This document shows, piece after piece, positions 1 through 60,926 of a stretch of DNA of 64,000 nt; position 1 is the stretch's first letter; the number at the start of each line of letters is the position of its first letter. The stretch comes from an uncultured archaeon (lineage in GTDB: Archaea > Thermoplasmatota > Penumbrarchaeia > JASLWR01): assembly GCA_964430885.1 (NCBI GenBank), contig CAYSHM010000006.1:75803-139802 (forward strand), given 5' to 3'. The notes below the pieces were generated by a model. It worked only from the letters and a program-made list of their open reading frames with translations, was not told the DNA's origin and did not search any database. A program made the position numbers and the translations under genes.

Positions 1-2439
1 ACGGCGGATACCTGGTATGTTGAGATAGTTGATGACGAAGGAACCAACGGCAAGTTCACCTCATTGGATCTGGATAACAACGGGAAACCCCATATCGCCT
101 ACCAGAAGACGGAAGGATTCGAGCTGAGATATGCTGACAAAACAGGTGCGGCTTGGGATACGGAAACCATAGAGGCGGGTGAAGCGTCCTATGGGTGGCA
201 TAACTCGATAGCGGTAGATTCTAACGGGAGACCTCATATCGCCTATTACGAGAATACCAACGGAATTCTGAAATATGCCCGCTGGACCGGTTCTCAGTGG
301 TCCATTGAACAGGTGGACCCTGCGGAATATGCAGGTAGTTACCCATCACTTGTTCTGGATGATTCCAACAATCCTCATATCTGCTATTACAGCTCCCGCT
401 GGAACTCCGATAACGGCCGGTTGAAATATGCCCATAAGACTGGTCAGGGATGGACATTGGAATTTCTGCATAATTCCACTGCCATGGGAAAACATCCTTC
501 TTTAGTGCTTGATGATGATGAGAGGCCTGTTGTGGCATATACCGATGCTGGTCAGGATGCACTCCGATTATTGAGATGGGATGATGAGGCCCCATCAGCA
601 AATGCAGGTACGGATATTGTGACCCTCCAGGGAGTGAATACAGATTTTAATGGGTCCGGATCAAGGGACAATTACGGTATTTCCAGCTACGATTGGACTT
701 TTGAATACAACGGCTACATGAAATATCTCACCGGAAAGACGCCCTACTACAAGTTCAATGATGTGGGGGTTTACACCATAACCCTCAATGTTACGGATAA
801 TGCAGGCAACTGGGATCAGGTTGTCTTCAATGTTACCGTTAATGATAATGAGCGACCTTACGCAGATGCCGGTGGCCCTTACAACGGCCCCCAGAACGAA
901 GCAGTTTATTTCAACGGCAATGTATCATATGATAATGTGGGCATAGACAGCTATACCTGGACATTGGACTACCAGGGAGCTGAAGAGGAGCTGTTTGGGA
1001 TAGATCCCTATTTTGTGTTCGGAGAAGCAGGTCAATACAACATTTCTCTCAATGTAACGGATTCAGCTGGGTTTTGGGATACTGACGCTGCTACAGTGAC
1101 CATATGGGATTCTGAGAATCCGGTGGCAGTTGCTGGGAATGACCGGACAATTGATCAAGGTGAAGGAATAACGTTTGATGGGCTTTCCAGCACTGATAAT
1201 ACGGAGATAACCGGTTATGAGTGGACCATATTCCTTGAAGGCATGGTAGTAGAGGTTTTCGGAGGAGCTACCCCCAAGTATGTTTTCAATAATGCCGGGG
1301 AATATGTGGTTTCTTTGAATGTTTCTGATTCCACCGGCAACTGGGATATTGATTCCATTACCGTGACGGTTCTGGATACCACCGACCCCACGGTTCAGGG
1401 CGAGGTTCCGGATTCGGTTCCTCAGGGGACCAGGGTGCTATTGAACGCTACGGCTAGTTCAGACAACGTGGGTATTGTGAAGTATAAATGGACCTTCAAT
1501 TACAATGGTATCTCCATGTCACTGAACACTGCTTTAGCCGAATTCACCTTTGAGATAATAGGTCTGTATGATATTGTTTTGAAAGTTGAGGATGCCGAGG
1601 GTAATTATGATACCCTGCATTTTTCATTGAACGTAACAGATACGATGTCCCCTGCAGTAGAGATCACTAGTGCCAGTCCAAAGGAGGTTAATGGCTCTCT
1701 CTATGTTTTCGATGCATCGGGCAGTTCAGATAATATGGATATTGTTCAGTATATCTGGAAGTTCAAAGACAGGGGAAATGATGTCACACTAACTGGAGAT
1801 GTTGTGGAGTATAATTTTACCAAGGGCGGAAAATACAATATCAGTCTCAGAGTATTGGATGCAGCTGGAAATGAGAACGTTTCATTTGTTGTCATATCTT
1901 ACGGGAAGGTTTCCCAGGGTGATGACGATTCTTCGTCGGATGACGATTCATCCGATGATGATGATTCAGTTTCGGGAGATAAGGGCAGTGGTGATGATGG
2001 ACCAAATTGGCTCTTGATAATAATATTATTAATGCTGGCAGCCATTATTATAGGTGTCGGAATAGTGGTAGCGGTTTATATGGTGAAGAAGAATAAAGAG
2101 GAGAAGGATGAACCGGATGATGATAGGGTAGAGGGTATTGAAGAAGCCTCTCAACCCCAATCACCCCAGGAGCTCTACGCCCAGCTTTATGGTTCTTCAC
2201 CTCCCAGGGGTCCGGGAGATTACGGAAATGAAGGAGTAGTACCTGGCCACTCAGGACCTCCTCCGGCAGAACGAAGGTCTCCTACTGCCGAACAAGCTAA
2301 GCAAAAAGCGGTTCAGCAAAAAGCAGCCGCGGAACCTGGAACTCCGCAGCAAAACCCGAATGCCGAAAAAATCGCTCCTGGTAAACCCCGATCACCTCAG
2401 GTTCCCGGCAGCAGTCCGCCTCGACCACCGAAACAATAG
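1..2439 (+). CDS. Surface protein with beta-propeller-like and PKD-like repeats, C-terminal TM anchor and acidic/Pro-rich tail; 5' end truncated by window edge
   Basis: Frame 1 is open from nt 1 into the ORF-track start at 64 (TTG). Repeated 'PHIAYY...LKYA..W' units and PKD-like 'YTITLNVTDNAGNWD' modules; Asp/Ser-rich stretch, then hydrophobic helix 'WLLIIILLMLAAIIIGVGIVVAVYMV', then charged/Pro-rich tail ending PPRPPKQ. Confidence 0.6.
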   Translation, partial: TADTWYVEIVDDEGTNGKFTSLDLDNNGKPHIAYQKTEGFELRYADKTGAAWDTETIEAGEASYGWHNSIAVDSNGRPHIAYYENTNGILKYARWTGSQWSIEQVDPAEYAGSYPSLVLDDSNNPHICYYSSRWNSDNGRLKYAHKTGQGWTLEFLHNSTAMGKHPSLVLDDDERPVVAYTDAGQDALRLLRWDDEAPSANAGTDIVTLQGVNTDFNGSGSRDNYGISSYDWTFEYNGYMKYLTGKTPYYKFNDVGVYTITLNVTDNAGNWDQVVFNVTVNDNERPYADAGGPYNGPQNEAVYFNGNVSYDNVGIDSYTWTLDYQGAEEELFGIDPYFVFGEAGQYNISLNVTDSAGFWDTDAATVTIWDSENPVAVAGNDRTIDQGEGITFDGLSSTDNTEITGYEWTIFLEGMVVEVFGGATPKYVFNNAGEYVVSLNVSDSTGNWDIDSITVTVLDTTDPTVQGEVPDSVPQGTRVLLNATASSDNVGIVKYKWTFNYNGISMSLNTALAEFTFEIIGLYDIVLKVEDAEGNYDTLHFSLNVTDTMSPAVEITSASPKEVNGSLYVFDASGSSDNMDIVQYIWKFKDRGNDVTLTGDVVEYNFTKGGKYNISLRVLDAAGNENVSFVVISYGKVSQGDDDSSSDDDSSDDDDSVSGDKGSGDDGPNWLLIIILLMLAAIIIGVGIVVAVYMVKKNKEEKDEPDDDRVEGIEEASQPQSPQELYAQLYGSSPPRGPGDYGNEGVVPGHSGPPPAERRSPTAEQAKQKAVQQKAAAEPGTPQQNPNAEKIAPGKPRSPQVPGSSPPRPPKQ

Positions 2440-2791: not shown

Positions 2792-3421
2792 TTGTCAGAA
2801 GGATTACAGTTGAGGACATTTATATTCATCGATCAGATGCAGCCGCAATTTGCAGCATATCAGGCTACTGTCGGGAGAGGTTATCTGCCAGTATCAGGTA
2901 TGGCTGCAATATATATTGAAACTGCACCCGGAATGCCCATCAATCGGGTTACGGATCTGGCATTGAAATATACAAGTGTGAGACCGGCAGAACTAATAGT
3001 GGAGCGAGCTTTTGGAATGTTGGAATTCCATCATGAATCCCAGTCCGAGGTCAGAACAGCGGGAAAAGCCGTTCTAGATGGCCTAGGTTTGGAGGAGATG
3101 GACAGATATAAACCAAAGGTTGTGACCAATGAGATAATCAAGAAAATAGATGATTACCAGTCAATGATAATCAATCGTTCCTGGAGGGGTATGATGATCC
3201 TTCATGATCATTCTCTCTTCATTATGGAGACTCAGCCTGCCGCTTATATAACCTATGCCGCAAACGAGGCCGAAAAGGCAGCAGATATCAATATTGTCGG
3301 CATCAGGGCAGCCGGTGCCTTTGGCAGGCTGTACATCAGCGGTTGGGAATCCGATGTCAGGGCCGCAGCGGATGCCGCTACGACGGCCATAGAGGGTATT
3401 GACGGTAGGGATGATTGGTAG
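2792..3421 (+). CDS. BMC shell protein, tandem-domain BMC-T (EutL/PduB-like permuted type)
   Basis: Two BMC-like halves; second half 'AAYITYAANEAEKAADINIVGIRAAGAFGRLYISGWESDVRAAADAATTAIEGI' fits the BMC fold pattern. TTG start preceded by AGGAGG at 2776-2781. Call from recalled family motifs, not alignment. Confidence 0.55.
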   Translation: MSEGLQLRTFIFIDQMQPQFAAYQATVGRGYLPVSGMAAIYIETAPGMPINRVTDLALKYTSVRPAELIVERAFGMLEFHHESQSEVRTAGKAVLDGLGLEEMDRYKPKVVTNEIIKKIDDYQSMIINRSWRGMMILHDHSLFIMETQPAAYITYAANEAEKAADINIVGIRAAGAFGRLYISGWESDVRAAADAATTAIEGIDGRDDW

Positions 3422-4190
3422 TTCCGCCGACCTAGGTGTCTTTATGGATCCCGACCGTCTCAGGACCATCGTTCTGGAGCAGGTACGGAGATATTTTCAG
3501 AACGAGGGAATGGAGTTCATTCGATATGAAAAGGATTCCGAAGAAGGATCTAAAGGTATATTGATAGTGATAAACCGAACTGATCCATCAATGGACCTTT
3601 TATTCAGCCAGATAAACAATCTGGTATCTGCTGGTCATAACATCACATTGATGAGCACCTCCGAAGTGAGGGCAATATTGGGCCAGCAGGGCTATTGGTC
3701 ACTTGACCGGATCACCTACTTGTCTATTGATGATACCCGAAAGGTCAACATGAAAATTGACGAATATTGGTCCCTGCTATTTCCGGTTATAGGTTACTCC
3801 CTGGCCGGAGAGATATCAGCCTTAAAAGATACAAATCCATTGGCGGATTTGGCTTTGACGGCCCTGCGCAGTGGATTGGATGTCGGAGTGGCAGTGGATA
3901 CCCTTGAGACTGTAGGGAAGAAGGCTCGTAGGCCAAAGCTGATCTCCGAGTCCACCAGGATACAGAAGGGCTTATCGGGAATAGGCGTGAGATTGGTAAC
4001 CCTGGAAAATATGGTCAACGAGATGTCCTTTGACAAACGGAGGTTCACAGGCCGAGTGCTGACAGAGGATATAATAAACAGCTATATGTCCCGTGGCGTG
4101 TTCGATATCAATGTGGATGAAGATACTGTGATCACGCCTTTGGCAAGGGAAAGGGCAAGGGAGTTGAACATTCGAATAAATATCATTTAG
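3411..4190 (+). CDS. BMC-locus protein of unknown function; N-terminal amphipathic helix may be an encapsulation peptide
   Basis: ORF 3399..4190 with in-frame ATG at 3411 and 3444. N-terminus 'DPDRLRTIVLEQVRRYF' is amphipathic; C-terminal 'GRVLTEDIINS...VITPLARERARELNI' loosely resembles a segment of the N-terminal domain of the DeoC fusion at 11266. No family recognised. Confidence 0.45.
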   Translation: MIGSSADLGVFMDPDRLRTIVLEQVRRYFQNEGMEFIRYEKDSEEGSKGILIVINRTDPSMDLLFSQINNLVSAGHNITLMSTSEVRAILGQQGYWSLDRITYLSIDDTRKVNMKIDEYWSLLFPVIGYSLAGEISALKDTNPLADLALTALRSGLDVGVAVDTLETVGKKARRPKLISESTRIQKGLSGIGVRLVTLENMVNEMSFDKRRFTGRVLTEDIINSYMSRGVFDINVDEDTVITPLARERARELNIRINII

Positions 4191-4238
4191 AAATTGAATT
4201 AATAGGATCAGATATCATAGATCAAGGAGTGTAAGAAA

Positions 4239-4532
4239 ATGAAATTGTGCAGAGTGGTAGGAAATGTGGTAGCCACTGTCAAGGACCGAAACATCGAGTC
4301 CTTCAAGCTGATGATAGTACAACCGGTGGATTTCAAGGAACAGAAGCCCTATGGAGAGCCTCTAGTGGCAATAGATGCGGTTGGTGCCGGCCAAGATGAG
4401 CTGGTCCTGATAGTTCAGGGAAGTTCCGGCAGAATGACCGCTATAACTGACCAGAAACCGTCCGACTGTACGATAATGGCAATTGTGGATTTTGTGACCT
4501 TAAACGGTGAACAGACCTTTGCAAAACGGTGA
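4239..4532 (+). CDS. BMC vertex (pentamer) protein, EutN/PduN/CcmL family (BMC-P)
   Basis: 97 aa; 'MKLCRVVGNVVATVK...AIDAVGAGQDELVLIVQGSSGR...AIVDFVTLNG' matches the EutN/CcmL pattern. ATG at 4239 with AAGGAG upstream. Confidence 0.85.
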   Translation: MKLCRVVGNVVATVKDRNIESFKLMIVQPVDFKEQKPYGEPLVAIDAVGAGQDELVLIVQGSSGRMTAITDQKPSDCTIMAIVDFVTLNGEQTFAKR

Positions 4533-4550
4533 TCGAGGGAGGTTTTAATA

Positions 4551-5981
4551 ATGGAGATCAGGCAGGATCAGATAAATAATATTGTGGATGAGATAGTTAG
4601 AAGAGTGGAGCTGGATATGAGCTATGGGAAACCGAACATGGGGCCAGCCAAGCAGGGAGGCACTACAGGTATCTACAGCACTATTGACGAGTGTATTGAG
4701 AAGGCGAAGAAGGCAAGAAAGTTTTTGATGTCAATGTCATTGGATCAAAGGCAGAAGCTGATAGATGCCATGAAAGGGGAGATATTGCAGAACGCAGATC
4801 CTCTGGCCAAGCTTGCTGTTGAGGAGACTGGATTGGGTCGGTACAAGGACAAGGTGAATAAGAACATTCTGGCTGCGACAAAGACCCCTGGATGCGAGGA
4901 CCTGCAGACTGAAGCCCAGACGGGCGACGACGGTCTCACACTGTACGAGATGGGGCCCTTTGGAATTATAGCTTCCATAACACCTACTACCAATCCCACG
5001 TCAACGATCACATGCAACTCCATCGGCATGATCGCTGCTGGAAACGCTGTTGTGTTCAATCCCCATCCGAGGGCTACCAAGACCAGTCTGGAGACCATAA
5101 GACTGCTGAACCGGGGTATTCAGTCGGCAGGAGGTCCTACTGATCTTATAACAACGGTTAAAAAACCAACAATTGACACAAGCCAGGCTCTTATGAACCA
5201 TAAGGAGGTCAATCTACTCTGCGTAACCGGCGGTGAAGGAGTGGTGCATTACGGTCTTACCAGAGGGAAAAAATGCATTGCAGCAGGTCCGGGAAATCCT
5301 CCTGTTTTCGTGGACGATACCGCTGATCTGATACGGGCGGGCAGGGATATTGTGGACGGAGCCAGTTTTGACAACAATATCCTCTGTATAGCTGAAAAAG
5401 AGGTTCTGGTATTCGAAAATGTGGCAGATAGGCTAATCTCTGAGATGAGGAAACACGGTGCACATCTGGTCAGCGGAAAGGAGATAGACCGGCTGATAGA
5501 TTTGGTATTCAATGATCCCTCGGGAGAGATCCCCCTGGTGAACACCAAATGGGTGGGTCAGGATGCAGGTAAGATACTGCGGAACATAGGAATAACCGAT
5601 AAGTTCAATGCGCGATTGATCCTTGCCGAGGTTCCTCACGATCATCCATTCGTGCTGGCTGAAATGCTAATGCCAATACTGCCCATAGTTAGGGTGAAAT
5701 CCATAGATGAGGCCCTTAAAATTGGTCTGAGAGCCGAACATAGATTCAGACATACCGCAGCTATGCATTCCACAAATGTGGACAATATGACCAAGGTGGG
5801 ACGGGCAATGGAAACCACAATATTCGTTAAGAACGCTCCATCCTATGCAGGTCTGGGTTTTGGAGGTGAGGGATACTGCTCCCTTACAATAGCCGGACCA
5901 ACCGGTGAAGGAGTTACAAGGGCGAGGAATTTTGCCAGATTGAGAAGATGTACGCTCAAGGATTCATTCAGAATTGTGTGA
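4551..5981 (+). CDS. CoA-acylating aldehyde dehydrogenase (PduP/EutE-like) with N-terminal encapsulation-peptide-like helix
   Basis: 476 aa; catalytic-Cys region 'DNNILCIAEKE', 'GPFGIIASITPTTNPT'. N-terminal 'QDQINNIVDEIVRRVEL' amphipathic helix followed by linker. GAGGGAGG upstream. Confidence 0.85.
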   Translation: MEIRQDQINNIVDEIVRRVELDMSYGKPNMGPAKQGGTTGIYSTIDECIEKAKKARKFLMSMSLDQRQKLIDAMKGEILQNADPLAKLAVEETGLGRYKDKVNKNILAATKTPGCEDLQTEAQTGDDGLTLYEMGPFGIIASITPTTNPTSTITCNSIGMIAAGNAVVFNPHPRATKTSLETIRLLNRGIQSAGGPTDLITTVKKPTIDTSQALMNHKEVNLLCVTGGEGVVHYGLTRGKKCIAAGPGNPPVFVDDTADLIRAGRDIVDGASFDNNILCIAEKEVLVFENVADRLISEMRKHGAHLVSGKEIDRLIDLVFNDPSGEIPLVNTKWVGQDAGKILRNIGITDKFNARLILAEVPHDHPFVLAEMLMPILPIVRVKSIDEALKIGLRAEHRFRHTAAMHSTNVDNMTKVGRAMETTIFVKNAPSYAGLGFGGEGYCSLTIAGPTGEGVTRARNFARLRRCTLKDSFRIV

Positions 5982-6028
5982 ATAATAATCGATAATAAAT
6001 ATTTCAGTCCAGCAGATCAGGTGAAAAA

Positions 6029-7390
6029 ATGGCTTCATTGGGAACGGATATGGTAAGGAACTCGGGGATAATAGGTGCGGGTGGTGCAGGTTTTCCTACC
6101 CATGTCAAGCTGGCAGCTAAGGTTGATTGTGTAATAGCCAATGGTGCCGAATGTGAACCCCTTCTCAAGGCGGATAAGCAGCTCATGGAGCATTTCCCTG
6201 AAAAAATACTGGATGGTATGAAAGCAGCCATGGATATGACGGGAGCCCAGAAAGGTATAATAGCTCTAAAGAGAAAGTATGCGGATGCGGTGTCCTCCTT
6301 CAGAACTCGATTGGCGGATGCTGTGAACGGTAGATATGAAGGAATATCCATATTTGAACTTGAGAACTTCTATCCTGCAGGCGACGAACAGGTCATGGTC
6401 TATGAAGTGTTAGGACGGGTAATTCCCGAAGGCGCCATACCATTGTCAGCAGGTGTTGTTGTGGACAATGTGGGGACCCTGGCCCAAATATCGGAAGCCA
6501 TTGAAGGAAAAAATGTTACCCATCGGTGGGTAACGGTCACTGGTGAAGTGGCCTACCCAAAGACCCTTTACATCCCTATAGGTACTTCTATAGAAAAGAT
6601 GCTTGGATTGTGCGGGGGTCCGACAATAACCAATTACAGGATATTATCCGGAGGTCCCATGATGGGACGTCTAGTAAACCTTACCGATAGTGTTCTGAAA
6701 ACCACCTCGGGTATCATAGTTTTCCCGGCAGATCATTATGTTGTGAAGGCTAAAACCCGCCCGGTGGAAGTGAATGTTAGGTATACTTTAGCGGCATGCA
6801 TTCAGTGCAAAATGTGCACTGATGTATGTCCCAGATTCAATCTGGGTAAGTATGTATGTCCGGACAGTGTGATGAAAGGCATCGCTTACGGAATACTTTC
6901 AAAACCGGAGGATATGACCACCGCATTCCTCTGCGTTGAGTGCGGATTATGCACCCATTACGGATGCCCTATGGGTTTGGACCCCTGCGGTATGATGGGG
7001 AAGGTCAAATCCGAACTTATTTCCGAAGGTATGACGAACCCACATTCAAGGACGGATCTGTCTGCCAGGGAATACAGGCCTTTCAGAAAGGTTCCCCTAA
7101 AAAGATTGATGGCCAGGATGGATCTTTTGAGATATGATGTACCGGCACCCATGGAGCTGAAGGACCTATCGAAGGTTATTACAGAAGTGAATATCCCTCT
7201 TAAACAGCACATAGGCGCGCCTTCGAAACCTGTTGTGAAAGTGGGAGATCAAGTGAAGAAGGGTGAACTGATAGCAGATATTCCAAAAGGTTCTCTGGGG
7301 GCACGGTATCATTCCAGCATTAACGGTGAAGTAACAGGTGTGGATTCCTGCATCAGTATTAGAGCAAAGAAAATCGGAGGAATTGAATGA
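6029..7390 (+). CDS. PduS-like RnfC-family Fe-S flavoprotein (electron-transfer partner of PduT)
   Basis: 'GIIGAGGAGFPTHVKLAAKVDCVIANGAECEPLLKADKQLM' nucleotide-binding motif; two Cys clusters 'CIQCKMCTDVCP' and 'CVECGLCTHYGCP'; PduS-type C-terminus. Confidence 0.8.
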   Translation: MASLGTDMVRNSGIIGAGGAGFPTHVKLAAKVDCVIANGAECEPLLKADKQLMEHFPEKILDGMKAAMDMTGAQKGIIALKRKYADAVSSFRTRLADAVNGRYEGISIFELENFYPAGDEQVMVYEVLGRVIPEGAIPLSAGVVVDNVGTLAQISEAIEGKNVTHRWVTVTGEVAYPKTLYIPIGTSIEKMLGLCGGPTITNYRILSGGPMMGRLVNLTDSVLKTTSGIIVFPADHYVVKAKTRPVEVNVRYTLAACIQCKMCTDVCPRFNLGKYVCPDSVMKGIAYGILSKPEDMTTAFLCVECGLCTHYGCPMGLDPCGMMGKVKSELISEGMTNPHSRTDLSAREYRPFRKVPLKRLMARMDLLRYDVPAPMELKDLSKVITEVNIPLKQHIGAPSKPVVKVGDQVKKGELIADIPKGSLGARYHSSINGEVTGVDSCISIRAKKIGGIE

Positions 7391-7944
7391 GAGAGTCTAT
7401 AGGTCTCATGGAGTTCAACAGCATTGCAAAGGGTATTGAGGTGACGGATGTTCTTCTGAAGGCTTCCGAGGTGGAACTCATATTCTCATCGCCGGTGTGT
7501 CCTGGAAAGTATCTGATAATGATCTCTGGTGAGGTGGAGGCTGTTAAGAATTCACTGGGAAAAGGAGCCGACATATCGGATGGTTTCCTCATCGATCAAA
7601 GTGTAATACCTCAGGTTCATGAAAAGGTGTTCCCAGCCATAGCTGGGACCACACTGCCCGAGGTGATGGGGGCCATTGGTGTCATAGACTGCTATTCTTC
7701 GGTTTCGGCAGTAGTGGCAGCCGATAAAGCGGTGAAATCCGCCGATGTAGATCTGCTGGAGATTCGATTGGCCAGGGCGTTGGGAGGAAAGGCCTTTGTC
7801 ATAATAACAGGTGAGGTTGCCGATGTGAGGGCAGGTGTCGATAACGGAGTTGAGTCCATAAAGGAACACGGACTGCTGCTGGGCACAGTGGTAATTCCGT
7901 CCCCCCACCAGGACCTACTGGAAACGTTGATAGGATCGAGATGA
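7387..7944 (+). CDS. PduT-like tandem BMC-T shell protein with conserved Fe-S ligand Cys38
   Basis: 185 aa, two BMC domains; 'SIAKGIEVTDVLLKASEVELIFSSPVCPGKYLIM' parallels PduT '[34 protein letters not shown]' as recalled. Start ATG overlaps PduS stop (ATGA). Confidence 0.85.
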   Translation: MRESIGLMEFNSIAKGIEVTDVLLKASEVELIFSSPVCPGKYLIMISGEVEAVKNSLGKGADISDGFLIDQSVIPQVHEKVFPAIAGTTLPEVMGAIGVIDCYSSVSAVVAADKAVKSADVDLLEIRLARALGGKAFVIITGEVADVRAGVDNGVESIKEHGLLLGTVVIPSPHQDLLETLIGSR

Positions 7945-8041
7945 TCAGATCATAAATTCATATCACGATTAATTAAATTAATTAATTGATGAATAATTTG
8001 AAGAATATAATCAAGAAGATGAAAAATAGAAGTTGATTGAA

Positions 8042-8548
8042 ATGAGAATTTGCAGGGTAATAGGCAATCTGGTATCCACATGCAAGATACCTGATCACGA
8101 AGGTTTCAAGATACTGGCGGTTCGTGCTGTCGATCTTCACGGCAGAATGCATGGTGAGACCTTTCAGGCTATAGATTGCGCCCAGGCAGGTGTGGGTGAT
8201 TTTGTGCTCGTGATAGAGGAAGGAGGCTCCTGCAGTCAGGTGATGAGCGGAGTTAAGTCGCTAACCCCCAAGGGTGACCGGGTGGCAGTCAACAAGTCCA
8301 TTCTTGCTGTTGTGGATTATATTGAGGCTGATGGAGAGCTCAGAAGGCTGGAGCAGACAGCAGAGATGGAAGAGGATGGAGGAAAGAAAAAATTAAGAAG
8401 TACCAAGGTTAAAAGAAAGACCTCCAAGGCTACTGGAAAAAAGGGTAAAGAAAAAAAAAGTGAAAAAACGTCAGGAAAAAATTCCCGCAAACCTGCTAAA
8501 ACCTTGGCAACAAAGAAAGGCAAGGGCGGTAAGAAGAAGAAGGGTTGA
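8042..8548 (+). CDS. BMC vertex protein (EutN/CcmL family) with about 60-aa lysine-rich C-terminal extension
   Basis: 'MRICRVIGNLVSTCK...AIDCAQAGVGDFVLVIEEGG' BMC-P core, then tail 'GKKKLRSTKVKRKTSKATGKKGKEKKSEKTSGKNSRKPAKTLATKKGKGGKKKKG'. ORF-track start 8033 is TTG; first ATG at 8042. Confidence 0.8.
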   Translation: MRICRVIGNLVSTCKIPDHEGFKILAVRAVDLHGRMHGETFQAIDCAQAGVGDFVLVIEEGGSCSQVMSGVKSLTPKGDRVAVNKSILAVVDYIEADGELRRLEQTAEMEEDGGKKKLRSTKVKRKTSKATGKKGKEKKSEKTSGKNSRKPAKTLATKKGKGGKKKKG

Positions 8549-8554
8549 TAGATT

Positions 8555-9469
8555 ATGTCAGAAGACGAGCTCAGAAAGTTAGTAGAAAACATGGTTCGAT
8601 CCATGCTGGAATCCGGTTCTGTGGAGATACAGAAGGGAACTGCTCTAAGGACCCAGGGAGATATCTCAAGGCCTACCAACAATTATTTTAATGATCAGAT
8701 GGAGGGTAATGCCCGGTATGTGGTTGCAGCCAATTGGAAGATGAACATGACCACCATAGAGGCCAAGGAATTCGCTATGCAGATAAGGGCCTTAGGAGAG
8801 GAAATTTCCAATAGTAAAAGGGATGCAGTGGTCTGTCCTCCTATTTATTTGGCTCCTCTTCTGAAAACAGCGTTCATGGGGACGGGTATCCGGTTGGGCG
8901 GTCAGAATATGCACCATGAGACCAAGGGTGCTTATACCAGCGAGATATCGCCTCTAATGCTTAAGGATGCGGGTTGTCAATATGTGATAATTGGACATTC
9001 TGAAAGGAGACATATATTTGGTGAAAAGGACCATCATATCAATATGAAGGTGAGGTCAGCTTTCAATCATGGCCTTGTACCTCTTTTCTGCGTTGGCGAG
9101 ACCGAGAAGGAACGGGAGAGCAATGCTACCTTCAGGGTTGTCAGGAAACAATTGAAATTGGGCCTCTATAAGACAAGCTCCAAGCAATCCGGCAGGCTGA
9201 TAATCGGTTATGAACCGGTTTGGGCAATAGGCACTGGGAGAAATGCTACTCCGGCTGACGCCCAAAGGGTACATGCATTCATCAGGGAGGTTCTGACGGA
9301 GATCTACGATTTCCCCACGGCCAAGAATATCAGGATTCTCTACGGCGGAAGCGTTACACCTGATAATGCTTCAGGTCTTATAGCCAAAAAAGATATCGAC
9401 GGTTTCCTGGTGGGGGGTGCTTCTCTCACCGCTTCCAAGTTTATGAGCATAGCGGAGGTGTGCAAATGA
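8555..9469 (+). CDS. tpiA: Triosephosphate isomerase, bacterial type, with about 50-aa N-terminal extension (putative encapsulation peptide)
   Basis: 'AANWKMN', 'IGHSERR', 'YEPVWAIGTG', 'YGGSV' motifs. N-terminal 'EDELRKLVENMVRSMLE' amphipathic helix precedes the catalytic core. Confidence 0.85.
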   Translation: MSEDELRKLVENMVRSMLESGSVEIQKGTALRTQGDISRPTNNYFNDQMEGNARYVVAANWKMNMTTIEAKEFAMQIRALGEEISNSKRDAVVCPPIYLAPLLKTAFMGTGIRLGGQNMHHETKGAYTSEISPLMLKDAGCQYVIIGHSERRHIFGEKDHHINMKVRSAFNHGLVPLFCVGETEKERESNATFRVVRKQLKLGLYKTSSKQSGRLIIGYEPVWAIGTGRNATPADAQRVHAFIREVLTEIYDFPTAKNIRILYGGSVTPDNASGLIAKKDIDGFLVGGASLTASKFMSIAEVCK

Positions 9470-9945
9470 GCCAGGATATGAGGAAGATATTGATAGGTAG
9501 TGATCACGGGGGATTTGAGTTAAAGGAGATTATTAGACAGTTCCTCAAGGACCAGGGATACCGGGTTGTTGATTTTGGTTGCTATTCGCCGGACCCTGTT
9601 GACTATCCAGATATTGCCTTTTTGGTCTCTCAGGGGGTGTGTTCGAATCCTAATTCAATTGGTATAATGATAGATGGGGTAGGTGTTGCCAGTACAATGG
9701 TTGCAAACAAGATTCCCGGGATCAGGGCCGCCCTTTGCTGGAATCAGTTCAGCGCACACAATGCACGTGAGCACAACAATGCAAATATGCTCGTCCTAGG
9801 GGGTAGGGTAATCGGTGATATATTGGCCAGGAGCATTGTGAAGGAATTCCTGGAAACAGAATTTGCCGGCGGACGGCACGCACGGAGGGTAGACAAGATA
9901 ATGGCGATTGAAGCCAAATATCTGAGGTCTATTCAGGAAAAATGA
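9466..9945 (+). CDS. rpiB: Ribose-5-phosphate isomerase B (RpiB/LacAB family)
   Basis: 'KILIGSDHGGFELKE', 'MLVLGGRVIG', 'FAGGRHARRVDKI'. ATG at 9466 overlaps tpiA stop (ATGA); alternative ATG at 9478. Confidence 0.8.
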   Translation: MSQDMRKILIGSDHGGFELKEIIRQFLKDQGYRVVDFGCYSPDPVDYPDIAFLVSQGVCSNPNSIGIMIDGVGVASTMVANKIPGIRAALCWNQFSAHNAREHNNANMLVLGGRVIGDILARSIVKEFLETEFAGGRHARRVDKIMAIEAKYLRSIQEK

Positions 9946-10047
9946 GTTAAAAGTTAACAGAGTTAGGATAAATTTATTAGTTCAGTGTAATAATAATATA
10001 AAACTTAATAATATAGAGTTGAGAGACGAATCTTGAGGAGTGAACCA

Positions 10048-10335
10048 ATGTATATCGGTAAAGTAATGGGAACCGTGGTGGCCACAAGGAAGATAGATAC
10101 CCTTAAAGGGATCAAACTGCTCCTAATACAGCCCTTGGATGATGATATGAAACCCTCGGGAAGGTTACTGGTGGCCGGGGATGCCCAGGGAGATACAGGA
10201 GAAGGTGATGTGGTATATTTGGTCACCAAGAAGGAAGCCTGTTTCCCCTTCGGTGGTCTGACCCCCCTTGATCACGCTGTGGCGGGTTATATTGATGATT
10301 ATCATATTGAAGAATCTTTAAAAGAGGGGAAATAA
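10048..10335 (+). CDS. BMC vertex protein (EutN/PduN/CcmL family), third paralog
   Basis: 'MYIGKVMGTVVATRKIDTLKGIKLLLIQP...LVAGDAQGDTGEGDVVYLV'. ORF-track TTG start at 10033; first ATG at 10048 after GAGGAG. Confidence 0.8.
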   Translation: MYIGKVMGTVVATRKIDTLKGIKLLLIQPLDDDMKPSGRLLVAGDAQGDTGEGDVVYLVTKKEACFPFGGLTPLDHAVAGYIDDYHIEESLKEGK

Positions 10336-10640
10336 GCATAACATGGACACTGCGGACAACCATCCAAGGCTCTATTTACCTGGAAGAAATATTTGGACAG
10401 TAAATAATAATATAGGAATAAGGTAAGATTAGTGTGTTAATTTAATCCTGTTACCAGGATGTGAATTCATAATAGTATTGGATAGGGCATGGGTATGAGT
10501 AAAGGTAAAAAGCAATAGATGAAAAATTCGAAATCAGCTATTGAAATGTATAATCAATCAAAAATTATTGAGAAGTAGTAGTCAAGGATTATTACAATGG
10601 AGATACATTGAATCCAAAACAAATCAAGGAGGAAAAATAA

Positions 10641-10934
10641 ATGAGAGATCTACAGAAAATTGCATTGGGAATGATTGAGACAAAGGGAGAGATAGGAGCT
10701 ATAGAAGCTGCAGATGCCATGGTAAAGGCAGCCAAAGTGACCCTTATCGGAAAGGATTTCGTCGGCGGCGGCTATGTGTGCGTTATGGTCAGGGGAGAGG
10801 TTGGGGCTGTCAAGGCGGCAATAGACGCCGGTGGAGCCGCTGCAGCCAGGGTCGGAGAGCTTGTCTCAGTTCACGTTATTCCCAGGCCCCACGAGGAAGT
10901 AGAGGATGTTCTGCCTTCCATTGATAGGGATTAA
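10641..10934 (+). CDS. BMC hexamer shell protein (BMC-H, PduA/EutM/CcmK-like)
   Basis: '[26 protein letters not shown]...[33 protein letters not shown]' matches the canonical BMC-H pattern closely. AAGGAGG upstream. Confidence 0.9.
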
Positions 10935-11265
10935 AGTAATACTGCATTAAATTGTTATTTGCAGGGATGGGCTGAAATATTCGCCTGCTCCCTTAGAGAA
11001 CAGGATTTGCATTTGGAGATTTATCCTCAAAATAATAATGATATTCTTTTAGGAAGATCATCTGAATGTTTTATCCTGCAATTTACTCAATAGGATTAAA
11101 TCGAATTGATATCTATGGTGATCATGAAAGCAAAGGCCATATGTCAATTACTTCCAGATTGAAATGCGGGTAGTATTGTTACCTTTGATATCAAGATCCG
11201 GGATATGGAATGTATGGCCTAAACACCACGAAAAAATTCAAGAATAGTGATAATGAAGTGATACA

Positions 11266-12705
11266 ATGGAAAGGGAGGAAGCGATCAAAAGGATAACCGA
11301 AGAGGTTCTTGCAAGAATTAGGGGCGCATCTTCGGGTAATTCTTTGAATACCTCACAGGGATCTGCCGCGGATCAATCCGAAAAGGGACGGAGTGCACCT
11401 TATTTAGCCTCTGGGGGAAAATCCATTATTATGATACTCAGCGGAGACCGGACTATTGAGGATCTGAGAGAGGACATCAGTTCCATATGCAGTAGCCAGA
11501 AGGTTGAAATGATAGTGGTATCCGATTGGGCTCTTAGGTCCTTCAACATCTTTAAACTCAAGGGTTTAGCTCCTGGGATAAAACTGCTCCAGGAGGGGGA
11601 CATATTGGGCAGCAAGACAATATCAGACATCTTATCAGACGTTGACTCGGTCTATGTTCTCGACCTGGATATTCCCAGTGCTTCGCGTATTGCAGATTTT
11701 GCTCCAGTGCTGCCTGCTGAAAGGGTTATCACAGGGGCAATTATTTCCGGTAAAAGCGTTATCTGTTCACATGCACTTCTGAGCCCAATGGCAGGGGAGC
11801 TAACTCCTCCATGCGCCCGTGAGGCCATTTCCGCAGTTGAGAAGAAGCTCGTGGCCGTCGGTGTTGCCATGCTTGGTTCGGGGACTTCTTTCAGTGATAA
11901 TGAAGCAGTGGAACAGGCCCTAGCCCGCTGCCCGGCGGGTGAAGGAGAATGTATTGGATGCGGATTGTGCGTGAACCTGAACACAGCAGGCGTGGAGAAC
12001 ATCTTTTCAGCCGGAGCCCAGAGGATTAGTACGGCTACCGGATTGGATACCCCCAATCCAGATATGGCTCGTATGATAGATCACACGCTGCTGAAACCCG
12101 CTGCCACAGAGGATGATATCCGGGAGCTATGTGATGAGGCTAGAAGATACAATTTCGCTACGGTATGTGTTAATCCATCCCATGTAGCCCTTGCAGCAAG
12201 GGAGCTGAGAGGAACGGATGTTGGTATCACCACTGTCATCGGTTTCCCCCTGGGAGCAACAACCCATACCGCAAAGTCCATTGAGACCCGGGATGCAATA
12301 GCCAATGGCGCCAATGAGATAGATATGGTGGTTAACGTTGGCGCTCTGAAGGCTGGCAACGATGATCTGGTAAAAAGGGATATTGCGTCAGTGGTGAACG
12401 CTGCAGGCAATGATGCTATTGTCAAGGTGATTCTTGAGACCTCTCTGCTGAATGACGAGGAGAAGGTCAGGGGCTGCCTGCTCTCAAAGATGGCCGGGGC
12501 GGATTATGTGAAGACATCCACTGGTTTTGGTCCTGGCGGCGCTACCGTAGAGGATATCCGCTTAATGAGGCAGACTGTGGGCCCAGATATGGGGGTTAAG
12601 GCCTCTGGAGGGATCAGAAATACAGACGATGCCAATGCCATGCTTGAAGCAGGTGCTTCAAGGATAGGTGCTAGTGCTTCAGTTGCCATTGTTAAGGGCG
12701 CATGA
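11266..12705 (+). CDS. deoC: Deoxyribose-phosphate aldolase (DERA/DeoC) fused to about 265-aa N-terminal domain of unknown function with Cys cluster and encapsulation-peptide-like N-terminus
   Basis: C-terminal 'IDHTLLKP...VCVNP...[12 protein letters not shown]...VKASGGIR' are DeoC hallmarks. N-terminal '[15 protein letters not shown]' amphipathic helix; Cys cluster '[14 protein letters not shown]'. Confidence 0.85.
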
Positions 12706-17009: not shown

Positions 17010-17288
17010 ATGAAGTTGCCAAGAAGGATAAAAACGTACTGTCCGTTCTGCAAGGTCCACACGGAGCATAAGGTGGAAAATGTGAAGAAGAAGAAGGCTT
17101 CTGAGCTGAAATGGGGACAGAGACGTTTCAGAAAGGTAATGAGAGGGTACAGGGGATTTCCCAGACCCAAACCCGAAGGCAGGGAAAAACCAACCAAAAG
17201 AATATATCTACGAAAAAGGTGCACCCAGTGCAATAAAGCTCATCAGAGCAAATGTTTCAGATCAGGGAAATTTGCGTTCAAGGATTGA
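17010..17288 (+). CDS. rpl44e: Ribosomal protein L44e (eL42)
   Basis: '[15 protein letters not shown]...KRCTQCNK' zinc-ribbon ribosomal protein pattern; archaeal/eukaryotic-specific. Confidence 0.85.
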
Positions 17289-17293
17289 TAATT

Positions 17294-17509
17294 ATGCATA
17301 TACAAAAACAGACCAAGTATTTGGATACACCTAACAGCAAATACTTAAAGGTGAAATGTCACGACTGCATGAACGAGCAGGTAATATTCAACAAGGCCAG
17401 TAATGTTGTGAAATGTTTGGTTTGCGGGGCTACTTTAGCAGAACCCACCGGCGGAATGGCCAAGGTAAAGAGTAAGATATTGGCCGTTGTTGACAGAAAG
17501 TACAGATGA
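17294..17509 (+). CDS. rps27e: Ribosomal protein S27e (eS27)
   Basis: '[36 protein letters not shown]' matches the S27e C4 zinc-finger pattern. Alternative ATG at 17252. Confidence 0.8.
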
Positions 17510-18297
17510 AGGTAGAGATTTATATGGCAAACCGATTCGAATGGCCTTTGGAAGATGAACTGGTTGTATGTACCGTAAAAAGGGTTCTTGATTATGGTGC
17601 TTTTGTTACCCTGGATGAATATCAGGATAAAGAAGGCTTCATCCATATTGCTGAGATCGCTTCCGGTTGGGTCAAATATATCGGCAACCATATTAGAGAA
17701 AAGGCCAAGGTTGTTACCAAGGTCCTTCGTGTGGATCCTCGAAGGGAGCATATAGATCTCTCCTTGAAGAGGGTCAATGACCACCAGAAGAGGGCAAAGA
17801 TACAGGAGTGGAGAAGAAATACCAAGATGCTGAAGCTCTTCGAACTTCTCTCAAAAAGAATAGAGAAAGAGCTGAAATTGTGTTATAGAGAGTTTGGTTT
17901 CTCACTGATGGAGAAATACGGCTCCCTTTATAACTCCTTTGAAGCGGTATCTATCAATAACAATGTCCTTGAAGAGGACGGTTTCCAGGGAGACTGGGTG
18001 GAGCATTTTGTTGATATTGCACGGACCAATATAACTCCCCCCTATGTATCCATTTCAGAGAAAATATACCTATTCTCTCCTGCTCCCAATGGAGTGGAAC
18101 ATGTTAAGGAAGCTATAGGTTCGGTGATCAAAAATTCCGAGGAAAACGTCAAGATCACCTATGTAGGGGCGCCGGAATACCGGATCTCCGTCATCGCCCG
18201 CGATTATAAAAATGCGGAATCAGTAATGGCTAATACTGCAGGAGATGTTATTGATAAGATAACATCAACGGGCGGTTATGGTTCATTCGATAGATAA
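17506..18297 (+). CDS. eif2a: Translation initiation factor 2 alpha subunit (aIF2-alpha)
   Basis: S1 domain '[41 protein letters not shown]'. ATG overlaps the S27e stop. Confidence 0.8.
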
Positions 18298-18323
18298 ATA
18301 ATTTTTTCAAGAGGGCATGGATC

Positions 18324-18503
18324 ATGAAGCATTTTTTATTCAAGTGTTCAGAATGTTCAGTCTATACTATGGACCAACAATGCCCAGAATGCGGTAATAC
18401 AGCTTGGGCTGTGGAACCCCCTCGTTTTTCACCACAGGACCGTTGGGGGAAATACCGCAGAAAGTTATTACTTAACTTGGAGAATGATGAGAATGATGGA
18501 TAG
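18324..18503 (+). CDS. nop10: H/ACA ribonucleoprotein component Nop10 (59 aa; absent from ORF track)
   Basis: Hand translation from ATG 18324: MKHFLFKCSECSVYTMDQQCPECGNTAWAVEPPRFSPQDRWGKYRRKLLLNLENDENDG, stop TAG 18501-18503. Zinc ribbon plus 'PPRFSP' motif; canonical position after aIF2-alpha. Confidence 0.7.
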   Translation: MKHFLFKCSECSVYTMDQQCPECGNTAWAVEPPRFSPQDRWGKYRRKLLLNLENDENDG

Positions 18504-58524: not shown

Positions 58525-58694
58525 AATGGCCTACCCCCATTTATCAATTTAGCCTGATGAATTTGGATTAAAAATTGAATTTATTTATTATTCAAGATAT
58601 TATATATATATTTATACCTGTAACTATTTCATATTCAGTGTTGGTATCATAACCTGAACGGTAATTAAAATTGAGATTTTACAGGTGTGTACGG

Positions 58695-60323: not shown

Positions 60324-60327
60324 TAGA

Positions 60328-60894: not shown

Positions 60895-60926
60895 AATGAA
60901 TTATCGGTCATCCAAGGTATCAAAGA

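What the first reader, a model, noticed from the sequence alone, without database searches (positions are those of the whole stretch)
6029..7944. Translationally coupled PduS-PduT pair with conserved PduT Cys38
The PduT-like shell protein retains Cys38 in a 'VCPGKYLIM' context corresponding to the 4Fe-4S ligand at the trimer pore. Its start overlaps the PduS-like flavoprotein stop (ATGA). This suggests an electron conduit across the shell for cofactor redox balance in a non-B12 compartment.
Basis: partly seen in the sequence, partly recalled or inferred. Interest (0 to 1): 0.5.

Follow-up and report, generated by a model that had tools for sequence, protein, structure and literature searches.

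The report
Electron-export pair in archaeal microcompartment
The two genes are a real NADH-oxidising flavoprotein and its iron-sulfur shell-tile partner, a module already published for protein-walled microcompartments, here in a sugar-phosphate compartment of an archaeon, a setting described in a 2025 preprint.

Summary
ORF 6029-7390 is a PduS-type flavoprotein and ORF 7387-7944 is a PduT-type tandem shell protein. Its Cys38 (CPGK) aligns to Cys38 of Salmonella PduT, and the genes overlap by ATGA.

Sutter et al. 2024 (PMC11626177) described this pair as MNdh/BMC-T^SE: it oxidises NADH inside the shell and passes electrons out through the pore [4Fe-4S] cluster, including in non-B12 compartments such as SPU.

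The pair sits in a 12-gene sugar-phosphate-utilisation locus (2792-12705) with no alcohol dehydrogenase and no phosphotransacylase. The chromosome is archaeal (L44e, S27e, aIF2-alpha, PAC2, Cbf5). The closest reference genome is the Thermoplasmatota MAG that names order JASLWR01 (77% PduT identity).

Du et al. 2025 (PMC12747264) already report archaeal microcompartments, name this order, and give the gene content seen here. I therefore call it a new member of a known kind, of modest interest.

The ATGA overlap is a generic operon feature, not a conserved signature. Side observations: two flavoprotein-fold cargo modules, one fused to the aldolase with a conserved four-Cys motif, and a lineage-specific lysine-rich tail on one vertex protein.

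The parts
6029..7390 (+). PduS-type flavoprotein (MNdh, metabolosome NADH dehydrogenase), 453 aa. Domains: Complex1_51K aa 9-155, SLBB aa 168-214, 2x[4Fe-4S] domain aa 256-318, RnfC_N aa 385-448. The RnfC_N domain is C-terminal, so the protein is circularly permuted relative to RnfC.
   Evidence: Pfam. RnfC structures 9eri_C at 1.2e-58 and 7zc6_C at 6e-49, matched in two stretches that show the permutation. NCBIfam rnfC subfamily. No N-terminal encapsulation helix: the catalytic domain starts at residue 9.
6074..6100 (+). Gly-rich FMN/NADH-site motif GAGGAGFPT (aa 16-24). It is followed by NGAECEP (aa 38-44, nt 6140-6160).
   Evidence: Aligned to GLGGATFPT and NGAECEP of RnfC. At least 95% conserved in 74 homologues.
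6797..6970 (+). Eight cysteines of two ferredoxin-type [4Fe-4S] sites: C257/260/263/267 (CIQCKMCTDVCP) and C302/305/308/313 (CVECGLCTHYGCP).
   Evidence: All eight are 100% conserved in 74 PduS homologues. The Cx2Cx2Cx3C + Cx2Cx2Cx4C spacing is shared by 57 of 74. They align to the RnfC cluster cysteines.
7376..7390 (+). Junction: GGAGG (7376-7380), a 6-nt spacer, then ATGA (7387-7390), which is the PduT start overlapping the PduS stop.
   Evidence: Read directly from the sequence. Junction statistics across 78 loci.
7387..7944 (+). PduT-type tandem-BMC shell trimer (BMC-T^SE), 185 aa.
   Evidence: Pfam BMC, two domains, 2.1e-43. PDB 3nwg, 3pac and 3n79. NCBIfam eut_PduT 1.6e-42, which is below that model's equivalog cutoff. 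K25, the edge lysine mutated (K25Q) in PMC11626177 to prevent self-assembly, is invariant in 133 of 133.
7498..7509 (+). CPGK motif (Cys38-Lys41), the pore [4Fe-4S] ligand. One Cys per chain gives three per trimer.
   Evidence: Aligned to C38 of Salmonella PduT. Across 133 homologues: CPGK 116, CSGK 12, CAGK 2, CPGR 2, and one without Cys. Motif definition from PMC11626177.
2792..3421 (+). BMC-T^dp (CcmP/CsoS1D-like double-stacking trimer with a large gated pore).
   Evidence: NCBIfam CcmP 1.8e-76. CsoS1D_N + BMC in the precomputed Pfam hits.
3444..4190 (+). 248-aa cargo protein. It has an N-terminal amphipathic helix, an HFCD/UbiX-like flavoprotein fold, and a C-terminal TPLAxxRAxELxI motif.
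   Evidence: No Pfam hit. AF2 pLDDT 87.7. Foldseek hits to UbiX and EpiD at E 8e-6. Rare family, 24 representatives.
4239..4532 (+). BMC-P vertex pentamer (first of three).
   Evidence: EutN_CcmL 1.8e-27.
4551..5981 (+). Acylating (CoA-dependent) aldehyde dehydrogenase with an N-terminal encapsulation-peptide-like helix. This is the NADH producer.
   Evidence: Aldedh 2.6e-37. NCBIfam PRK15398 at 655 bits against a cutoff of 403.
8042..8548 (+). BMC-P vertex pentamer (second of three) with a 73-aa C-terminal tail containing 28 Lys/Arg.
   Evidence: EutN_CcmL 9e-14. Tail composition, and its absence in L002, L082, L084 and L085.
8555..9469 (+). Triosephosphate isomerase with a ~55-aa N-terminal extension that looks like an encapsulation peptide.
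   Evidence: TIM 2e-88, matched over aa 56-302.
9466..9945 (+). Ribose-5-phosphate isomerase B. Its start overlaps the TPI stop by ATGA.
   Evidence: LacAB_rpiB 6.9e-54. Junction sequence.
10048..10335 (+). BMC-P vertex pentamer (third of three).
   Evidence: EutN_CcmL 5.9e-18.
10641..10934 (+). BMC-H hexamer, the only one in this locus.
   Evidence: BMC 9.4e-27. Relatives L084 and L085 carry a second BMC-H directly after PduT.
11266..12705 (+). Signature enzyme: deoxyribose-phosphate aldolase (aa ~267-479). It is fused to an N-terminal encapsulation helix, a flavoprotein-like Rossmann domain, and a conserved C222-x6-C229-x2-C232-x2-C235 motif.
   Evidence: TIGR00126 deoC 6.2e-86. Alignment A2 invariants. 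AF2 model. PF02441 hit in 8 of 51 homologues. Foldseek DERA hits at E 1e-27.

Best explanation
The pair is an MNdh/BMC-T^SE (PduS/PduT-type) NAD+-regeneration and electron-export module. It belongs to a sugar-phosphate-utilisation (SPU-type) protein microcompartment encoded on an archaeal chromosome, from a Thermoplasmatota lineage related to order JASLWR01.

Proposed mechanism:
1. Inside the shell, the aldolase splits 2-deoxyribose-5-phosphate into glyceraldehyde-3-phosphate and acetaldehyde.
2. The acylating aldehyde dehydrogenase converts acetaldehyde, CoA and NAD+ into acetyl-CoA and NADH.
3. The PduS-type enzyme docks on the lumenal face of the PduT-type trimer and oxidises NADH at its FMN.
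4. Electrons pass one at a time through its two [4Fe-4S] clusters to the [4Fe-4S] cluster held by the three Cys38 residues at the trimer pore.
5. From there they reach an unidentified cytosolic acceptor.

This locus has no alcohol dehydrogenase, so this would be the only encoded route for regenerating lumenal NAD+. The two genes are co-transcribed and probably translationally coupled (ATGA overlap with a GGAGG site).

Shown here: domain content, all cofactor motifs, adjacency, locus composition, archaeal context and conservation. Inferred from work on bacterial homologues: cofactor loading, complex formation, direction of electron flow and encapsulation.
For: PduT identity and Cys38 equivalence.

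PduS four-domain permuted architecture, FMN/NADH motifs and eight Fe-S cysteines.

PduS lies immediately upstream of PduT, or separated only by a BMC-H, in essentially all 80 related loci. This matches the 97% adjacency reported in PMC11626177.

Locus content of DERA, AldDH, TPI, RpiB, three BMC-P, BMC-H, T^dp and T^s.

No alcohol dehydrogenase, PduL or B12 enzyme in any window ORF scanned.

Amphipathic N-terminal helices on AldDH, TPI, DERA and the 248-aa protein, but not on PduS (sequences). This fits PduS being recruited through the shell tile.

Biochemistry of a bacterial homologue pair: a stable complex containing FMN and Fe-S, NADH oxidation at kcat 20 s-1, the T^SE cluster reduced by NADH in EPR, and three Fe-S potentials (PMC11626177).

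The same module is noted in archaeal microcompartment operons with the CPGK motif (PMC12747264).

Archaeal host and vertical conservation: L44e, S27e, aIF2-alpha, PAC2 and Cbf5; identical synteny with archaeal flanks in L082, L084, L085 and L002; even GC content.
Against: Nothing has been measured for this protein pair or for any archaeal homologue.

The cytosolic electron acceptor is unknown even in bacteria. In vitro, O2 served as the acceptor, and electrons may have left from the FMN rather than from the shell cluster.

AlphaFold docking in PMC11626177 placed MNdh on either face of the trimer in equal numbers of solutions.

The window PduT scores below the NCBIfam eut_PduT equivalog cutoff (145 against 250 bits), so it is a divergent member.

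Without a phosphotransacylase, how CoA is recycled is unexplained. Exit of acetyl-CoA through the T^dp pore is only a hypothesis (PMC11585597).
Confidence: 0.82

Rival explanations
1. PduS acts as a cobalamin (corrin) reductase that reactivates a B12 cofactor, which is the original Pdu-operon assignment. PduT would then support that function.
For: PduS of Citrobacter and Salmonella was characterised as a corrin reductase (PMC2982820, listed). The window protein has the same domain set.
Against: The locus and the 64-kb window contain no B12-dependent enzyme: no diol dehydratase, ethanolamine ammonia-lyase, adenosyltransferase or reactivase. The signature enzyme DERA is cofactor-free. PMC11626177 shows NADH oxidation without any corrin and finds the pair across many non-B12 compartment types.
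Confidence: 0.03
2. The PduT cluster is not a through-conduit. It would act instead as a redox sensor or gate for the pore, or as a route for delivering or repairing Fe-S clusters of lumenal enzymes. PduS would then pass electrons to a lumenal acceptor, for example the flavoprotein-fold modules or the Cys4 site on the aldolase fusion.
For: Mutating the pore Cys changes shell permeability in Salmonella (cited in PMC11626177). This locus carries two flavoprotein-fold cargo modules, one with an invariant C-x6-C-x2-C-x2-C motif. These could be internal redox partners.
Against: An internal acceptor would still need re-oxidising, so a sink outside the shell is required for net NAD+ regeneration. EPR shows NADH-derived electrons arriving at the T^SE cluster. 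The pair co-occurs with AldDH, not with flavoprotein modules, across BMC types. Flavin binding by the two modules is untested, and sequence identity to UbiX/EpiD is only about 10-14%.
Confidence: 0.1
3. The locus is bacterial DNA mis-binned or chimerically assembled into an archaeal contig, or a decaying horizontally acquired relic. On this reading the pair does not function in an archaeon.
For: All shell and enzyme genes are of bacterial type. Du et al. infer horizontal transfer from Myxococcota-like bacteria.
Against: The locus sits between archaeal genes on one contig. The same contig was recovered in NCBI, JGI, ENA and Logan assemblies. The same junctions with archaeal flanking genes occur in four diverged relatives at 60-80% protein identity. 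All 12 ORFs are intact with catalytic and cofactor motifs conserved. GC is 0.44-0.47 in the locus against 0.39-0.47 elsewhere.
Confidence: 0.03
4. The 453-aa protein is the RnfC subunit of a membrane Rnf complex and lies next to a shell gene only by chance.
For: The best PDB and NCBIfam hits are RnfC.
Against: The RnfC_N domain is at the C-terminus rather than the N-terminus. This circular permutation is diagnostic of PduS/MNdh. No rnfABDEG genes are in the window. Adjacency to a Cys38 BMC-T holds in about 80 loci.
Confidence: 0.01

Closest known systems
MNdh / BMC-T^SE module (PduS/PduT homologues; Clostridium botulinum GRM1 pair characterised by Sutter et al. 2024, PMC11626177)
   Same: The four-domain permuted flavoprotein, the eight Fe-S cysteines and the FMN/NADH motifs match. 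The partner is a tandem BMC-T with the CP(G/S)K pore motif and the K25 edge lysine. The genes are adjacent, an acylating AldDH co-occurs, and no B12 enzyme is present. F67, next to the interface residues named in that paper, is retained.
   Different: The host is an archaeon and nothing has been measured here. Identity to the nearest bacterial homologues is only about 42-52% for PduT and 36-47% for PduS. No alcohol dehydrogenase provides a back-up route.
Salmonella enterica / Citrobacter freundii PduS-PduT of the 1,2-propanediol (Pdu) microcompartment (PDB 3pac, 3n79)
   Same: PduT aligns end to end (E 2e-42) with the same numbering for C38. PduS has the same domain architecture.
   Different: Pdu is B12-dependent and has PduQ alcohol dehydrogenase and PduL. 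This locus is DERA-based, B12-independent, and lacks both.
Archaeal microcompartments (AMC) of Hodarchaeales, and the JASLWR01 and SpSt-1190 lineages (Du et al. 2025 preprint, PMC12747264)
   Same: It is an SPU-type operon in an archaeon with an MNdh plus a T^s carrying CPGK. The gene content matches what the preprint states for JASLWR01: an extra T^dp, one BMC-H fewer, and no phosphotransacylase. The nearest reference genome is the JASLWR01 type MAG (77% PduT identity). The aldolase is fused to a flavoprotein-like domain. One BMC-P carries a K/R-rich tail.
   Different: This is a different species from the JASLWR01 reference; several locus proteins are only 31-60% identical. The preprint's analysis of the MNdh-T^s pair and of the K/R tail was done on Hodarchaeales. 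Here PduS and PduT are directly adjacent, whereas in the Hodarchaeales loci a BMC-H gene lies between them. The K/R tail is absent from this lineage's closest relatives.
Bacterial SPU microcompartments (SPU1-7; Sutter 2021, Dwyer et al. 2024 PMC11585597)
   Same: DERA, AldDH and RpiB form the core, with TPI, three BMC-P, and a PduS homologue in all subtypes but SPU6. Loci without PTAC typically carry a T^dp, as this one does.
   Different: The host is archaeal. Flavoprotein-fold modules are present.
RnfC subunit of Rnf complexes (PDB 9eri_C, 7zc6_C)
   Same: The FMN/NADH domain, SLBB and two [4Fe-4S] clusters match. These are the best structural templates (E 1e-58).
   Different: The domain order is permuted. 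The partner is a shell tile rather than membrane subunits.

Membership tests
BMC-T^SE (PduT-type electron-transfer shell trimer) | Tandem fusion of two PF00936 BMC domains, single-layer type, about 180-200 aa | tested here: met
   Two BMC stretches, 2.1e-43, 185 aa. Full-length alignment to PduT structures.
BMC-T^SE (PduT-type electron-transfer shell trimer) | CP(G/S)K motif with the pore cysteine (C38 in S. enterica numbering) | tested here: met
   C38-P-G-K is present and aligned to C38 of 3pac and 3n79. Invariant or near-invariant among homologues.
BMC-T^SE (PduT-type electron-transfer shell trimer) | Encoded next to an MNdh/PduS gene | tested here: met
   4-nt overlap with the upstream PduS gene. 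The same adjacency holds in the related loci.
BMC-T^SE (PduT-type electron-transfer shell trimer) | Actually binds a [4Fe-4S] cluster at the trimer pore | not testable with these tools
   Needs anaerobic purification with EPR/UV-vis. Only the ligand residue is shown here.
BMC-T^SE (PduT-type electron-transfer shell trimer) | NCBIfam TIGR02526 eut_PduT equivalog score at or above cutoff | tested here: not met
   145.3 bits against a cutoff of 250.3. That model is trained on enteric/Firmicute Eut/Pdu proteins, so this shows divergence only. The family definition in PMC11626177 does not use this criterion.
MNdh (PduS-type metabolosome NADH dehydrogenase) | Four domains in the order PF01512, PF10531, 4Fe-4S dicluster, PF13375 (RnfC_N at the C-terminus, permuted relative to RnfC/NuoF) | tested here: met
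   aa 9-155, 168-214, 256-318 and 385-448. The two-stretch alignment to RnfC shows the permutation.
MNdh (PduS-type metabolosome NADH dehydrogenase) | Eight cysteines for two [4Fe-4S] clusters, plus Gly-rich FMN/NADH-site motifs | tested here: met
   C257/260/263/267 and C302/305/308/313 are 100% conserved. GAGGAGFPT and NGAECEP are conserved.
MNdh (PduS-type metabolosome NADH dehydrogenase) | Co-occurs with an acylating aldehyde dehydrogenase in a BMC locus | tested here: met
   The AldDH gene at 4551-5981 lies directly upstream.
MNdh (PduS-type metabolosome NADH dehydrogenase) | NADH:acceptor oxidoreductase activity and complex formation with the shell trimer | not testable with these tools
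   Shown only for the C. botulinum pair.
SPU-type microcompartment (sugar-phosphate utilisation) | DERA signature enzyme, AldDH and RpiB, together with BMC-H/T and three BMC-P genes in one locus | tested here: met
   deoC 6.2e-86, AldDH, RpiB 6.9e-54, three EutN_CcmL, one BMC-H, T^s and T^dp.
Archaeal microcompartment of the JASLWR01-type (Du et al. 2025) | Archaeal host; extra T^dp; a single BMC-H; no phosphotransacylase; closest relatives in JASLWR01 | tested here: met
   Archaeal markers on the same contig. T^dp present, one BMC-H, no PF06130 hit. Best genome hit is JASLWR010000064.1 at 77%. The host's order-level placement was not tested by marker-gene phylogeny.
Pdu (B12-dependent propanediol) microcompartment | Diol dehydratase PduCDE, with B12 recycling genes | tested here: not met
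   None found in the locus or window. This is therefore not a Pdu compartment despite the PduS/PduT names.

The most novel reading that the evidence does not exclude
In this Thermoplasmatota lineage the compartment has lost or never had both alcohol dehydrogenase and phosphotransacylase. The MNdh/T^SE conduit would then be the obligatory and only outlet for reducing power, making the compartment an electron-exporting organelle that must plug into an archaeal-specific cytosolic acceptor. In addition, the two flavoprotein-fold cargo modules could form a previously undescribed second redox relay inside the shell that works with the PduS-PduT wire. One module is stand-alone. The other is fused to the aldolase and carries an invariant C-x6-C-x2-C-x2-C site.
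Probability: 0.12. Interest if true: 0.6.

Novelty: new member of a known kind. Interest (0 to 1): 0.3.

Why it matters
The locus gives an independent, well-preserved example of a shell-spanning electron wire outside Bacteria. It also lacks the usual back-up route for NAD+ regeneration.

That makes it a clean candidate for testing two things: whether MNdh/BMC-T^SE alone can sustain a metabolosome, and what accepts the electrons in an archaeal cytoplasm.

It does not change current understanding. Both the module and its presence in archaeal microcompartments are already published.

Tried and rejected
1. Searching homologues of the aldolase N-terminal 270 aa alone returned nothing at E<=1e-5, not even the protein itself. 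This was a limitation of the word-index search. The full-length query worked.

2. Foldseek with the full aldolase-fusion model returned only DERA barrels, so it says nothing about the N-domain. The N-domain's fold assignment rests on three weaker lines: PF02441 hits in 8 of 51 homologues, a secondary-structure order like that of the 248-aa protein, and the 'Flav' label in PMC12747264.

3. BLASTP between the 248-aa protein and the aldolase N-domain shows no significant similarity. Paralogy between them is therefore unproven.

The preprint's supplementary tables are not held. I could not confirm whether this exact genome was in their data set.

5. The tRNA scan and Rfam search of the whole window found nothing.

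6. Bacterial-type promoter and terminator scans did not exceed shuffled controls, and they are not appropriate for an archaeon.

7. I considered and rejected the ATGA overlap as a conserved signature of the pair. It is the mode but occurs in only 11 of 78 loci, and the junction ranges from -7 to tens of nt in most loci.

8. I rejected the cobalamin-reductase, RnfC-subunit and assembly-chimera readings, for the reasons given under the rival explanations.
Full report
**1. Observation**

The window has two same-strand ORFs at the stated coordinates, 6029-7390 (453 aa) and 7387-7944 (185 aa).
- The sequence at 7387-7390 is ATGA, so the start of the second gene overlaps the stop of the first by four bases.
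- A GGAGG lies six bases upstream of the ATG.
- The second protein reads ...SSPVCPGKYLIMISG..., with Cys at residue 38 (codon 7498-7500).

**2. The shell protein**

It has two BMC domains (Pfam 2.1e-43). It aligns end to end with solved PduT-type trimers: 3nwg at 2.9e-47, Salmonella PduT 3pac at 2.2e-42, and 3n79 at 2.2e-38.

The alignment has no gaps around the motif, and Cys38 falls on the PduT pore cysteine. Sutter et al. 2024 define this as the CP(G/S)K [4Fe-4S] motif, C38 in S. enterica (PMC11626177).

Conservation among homologues:
- In an alignment of 34 homologues, C38, G40 and the edge lysine K25 are invariant.
- Among 133 homologues, 132 carry the Cys (CPGK 116, CSGK 12, CAGK 2, CPGR 2), and K25 is present in all.

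The only membership criterion not met is the NCBIfam equivalog cutoff (145 against 250 bits). That reflects divergence from enteric proteins.

**3. The flavoprotein**

Pfam finds Complex1_51K (aa 9-155, 3e-46), SLBB (168-214), a 4Fe-4S dicluster domain (256-318) and RnfC_N at the C-terminus (385-448).

Against solved RnfC the match comes in two stretches, with the RnfC N-terminal domain aligned to the query's C-terminus. This is the circular permutation that PMC11626177 gives as characteristic of PduS/MNdh.

I extracted 74 PduS homologues from related loci. In them:
- The eight cluster cysteines (257, 260, 263, 267, 302, 305, 308, 313) are 100% conserved.
- The GAGGAGFPT and NGAECEP motifs are at least 95% conserved.
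- The Cx2Cx2Cx3C / Cx2Cx2Cx4C spacing is the majority pattern, 57 of 74.

**4. Adjacency and the overlap**

In 80 loci recovered from species-representative genomes with the PduT alignment, a PduS homologue lies directly upstream of PduT in essentially every locus long enough to show it. In three Heimdall/Hodarchaeota loci a BMC-H gene sits between the two.

Junction geometry varies. A 4-nt overlap is the most common single state but occurs in only 11 of 78 loci. The nearest reference genome has a 1-nt overlap. Two closer metagenomic relatives have the 4-nt overlap.

The same ATGA-plus-GGAGG design recurs at the TPI/RpiB junction of this operon. The overlap is therefore ordinary operon packing. 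It is compatible with translational coupling but is not a special signature.

**5. The surrounding locus**

Twelve same-strand genes span 2792-12705:
- a CcmP/CsoS1D-like T^dp
- a 248-aa protein with no Pfam hit
- a BMC-P
- an acylating aldehyde dehydrogenase
- PduS
- PduT
- a BMC-P with a Lys-rich tail
- triosephosphate isomerase
- RpiB
- a BMC-P
- a BMC-H
- a deoxyribose-phosphate aldolase fusion

This is the SPU (sugar-phosphate utilisation) composition (PMC11585597).

I scanned the locus ORFs and most of the larger ORFs of the 64-kb window (three over 300 aa were not scanned). None is a B12-dependent enzyme, alcohol dehydrogenase or PduL-type phosphotransacylase.

AldDH, TPI, the aldolase fusion and the 248-aa protein begin with amphipathic helices of the encapsulation-peptide kind (sequences; models). 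PduS does not, which fits recruitment through its shell-tile partner.

**6. Host**

Downstream on the same strand are ribosomal proteins L44e and S27e, aIF2-alpha and a PAC2 proteasome-assembly protein. Elsewhere in the window is a Cbf5-type pseudouridine synthase with DKCLD and PUA domains. These are archaeal markers.

- GC content is even across the locus and its flanks.
- Seven contigs were read that carry the identical PduT, and the protein is on record in NCBI, JGI, ENA and Logan.
- The best hit among 185,579 species-representative genomes is JASLWR010000064.1, 'Thermoplasmatota archaeon ETNP2_MAG_1', at 77% PduT identity.
- The next hits are Undinarchaeota, Heimdall/Hodarchaeota and Myxococcota B64_G9 at 51-56%.
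- Three further relatives (L082, L084 = GCA_964423515.1, L085) have the same operon followed by the same archaeal genes.

The locus is therefore a stable, vertically inherited part of this archaeal clade's chromosome.

**7. Mechanism**

The best-supported reading is the published MNdh/BMC-T^SE model. AldDH makes NADH in the lumen. MNdh oxidises it at FMN. Electrons pass through two [4Fe-4S] clusters to the pore cluster of the T^SE trimer and then out of the shell.

For a C. botulinum pair, PMC11626177 showed:
- a stable complex containing FMN and Fe-S
- NADH oxidation at kcat about 20 s-1
- reduction of the T^SE cluster by NADH, seen by EPR
- three Fe-S potentials of -0.147, -0.217 and -0.349 V

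The paper lists SPU among the non-B12 types carrying the pair. It notes 361 loci with the pair but no alcohol dehydrogenase, which is the situation here.

For this window, the steps shown are the sequence-level ones. Cofactor binding, docking, direction of electron flow and the external acceptor are inferred.

**8. Comparison with what is known, and novelty**

Du et al. 2025 (PMC12747264) report archaeal microcompartments in Hodarchaeales. They also report them in order JASLWR01 (Thermoplasmatota) and in SpSt-1190. For JASLWR01 they state an extra T^dp, one BMC-H lost and no phosphotransacylase. That is the composition found here.

They also describe the MNdh plus T^s (CPGK) pair as an electron-export channel. 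No other paper in the library links microcompartments to Thermoplasmatota.

The finding is thus a correct rediscovery. I file it as a new member of a known kind. It may even be already known, if this genome was in their data set, which I could not check.

**9. Side observations**

- *The 248-aa protein.* It belongs to a rare family, with 24 representatives at E<=1e-3 among 1.84 billion. It models confidently (pLDDT 87.7) as an HFCD/UbiX/EpiD-type flavoprotein fold (Foldseek E 8e-6).
- *The aldolase N-terminal region.* It has a confident Rossmann-like domain with a similar order of strands and helices. It hits PF02441 in 8 of 51 homologues. It ends in a C222-x6-C229-x2-C232-x2-C235 motif, invariant at three positions and more than 90% conserved at the fourth.
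- *The second BMC-P.* Its tail has 28 K/R in 73 residues and is missing from the four closest relatives. This resembles the DNA-binding tails reported for Hodarchaeales P2 proteins.
- *Missing BMC-H.* A BMC-H found directly after PduT in L084 and L085 is absent here.
- *Downstream gene.* A weak RecJ/DHH-like gene follows the operon in all relatives.

Noticed in passing
window 17010-19260 and 47167-48174: Archaeal marker genes lie on the same contig as the microcompartment operon: L44e, S27e, aIF2-alpha, PAC2, and Cbf5 with DKCLD+PUA. The host is an archaeon. The nearest reference genome is the Thermoplasmatota MAG JASLWR01 (77% PduT identity).
   Followed up: yes
window 3444-4190: A 248-aa protein with no Pfam hit and only 24 detectable representatives in 1.84 billion. 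It has an N-terminal encapsulation-like helix, a confident AF2 model with a UbiX/EpiD (HFCD flavoprotein) fold, and a conserved C-terminal TPLAxxRAxELxI motif resembling a peripheral-subunit-binding domain (weak E3_binding hit, E 0.027). Whether it binds flavin is unknown.
   Followed up: partly
window 11266-12060 (N-terminal part of the aldolase fusion): The deoxyribose-phosphate aldolase is fused to an encapsulation helix and a flavoprotein-like Rossmann domain. A C222-x6-C229-x2-C232-x2-C235 motif follows, invariant or near-invariant in 51 homologues. It is a possible Fe-S site and is not discussed in the papers I read.
   Followed up: partly
window 8327-8548 (tail of BMC-P 8042-8548): The vertex protein after PduT carries a 73-residue tail with 28 Lys/Arg. 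The tail is absent from the four closest relatives (L002, L082, L084, L085). Similar tails on Hodarchaeales P2 proteins were reported to bind DNA/RNA, so this looks like an independent gain.
   Followed up: partly
window 7945-8041: This AT-rich 97-nt gap sits where relatives L084 and L085 encode a second BMC-H (93 aa) directly after PduT. The window locus keeps only one BMC-H (10641-10934).
   Followed up: partly
window 12819-14678: A 619-aa protein with a weak DHH/archaeal RecJ-like N-terminus (NCBIfam 4.4e-07). It follows the operon in the window and in L002, L082, L084 and L085, but is not detected in the Hodarchaeota, Undinarchaeota or Myxococcota loci. It could be a nuclease feeding the deoxyribose pathway. 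Untested.
   Followed up: no
window 9466-9469: A second ATGA start/stop overlap with GGAGG upstream, at the TPI/RpiB junction. This shows the PduS/PduT overlap is a general feature of this operon.
   Followed up: yes
window 64-2439, 19427-24034, 28167-32378, 32546-36757, 54610-58524: Several very large ORFs (791 to 1535 aa). Of those scanned, 28167-32378 has Lamin-tail and Big_5 domains and 54610-58524 has WD40 repeats. The relative L001 shows PKD repeats in the homologue of 64-2439. 19427-24034 and 32546-36757 were not scanned, and 28167-32378 and 32546-36757 are the same length (1403 aa).
   Followed up: no
window 58671-61852: Nucleotide-related genes about 46 kb from the operon: an amidohydrolase-NUDIX fusion, an isochorismatase-family protein and a dCTP deaminase/dUTPase-like protein. 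They might belong to the deoxynucleotide salvage that supplies deoxyribose-5-phosphate.
   Followed up: no
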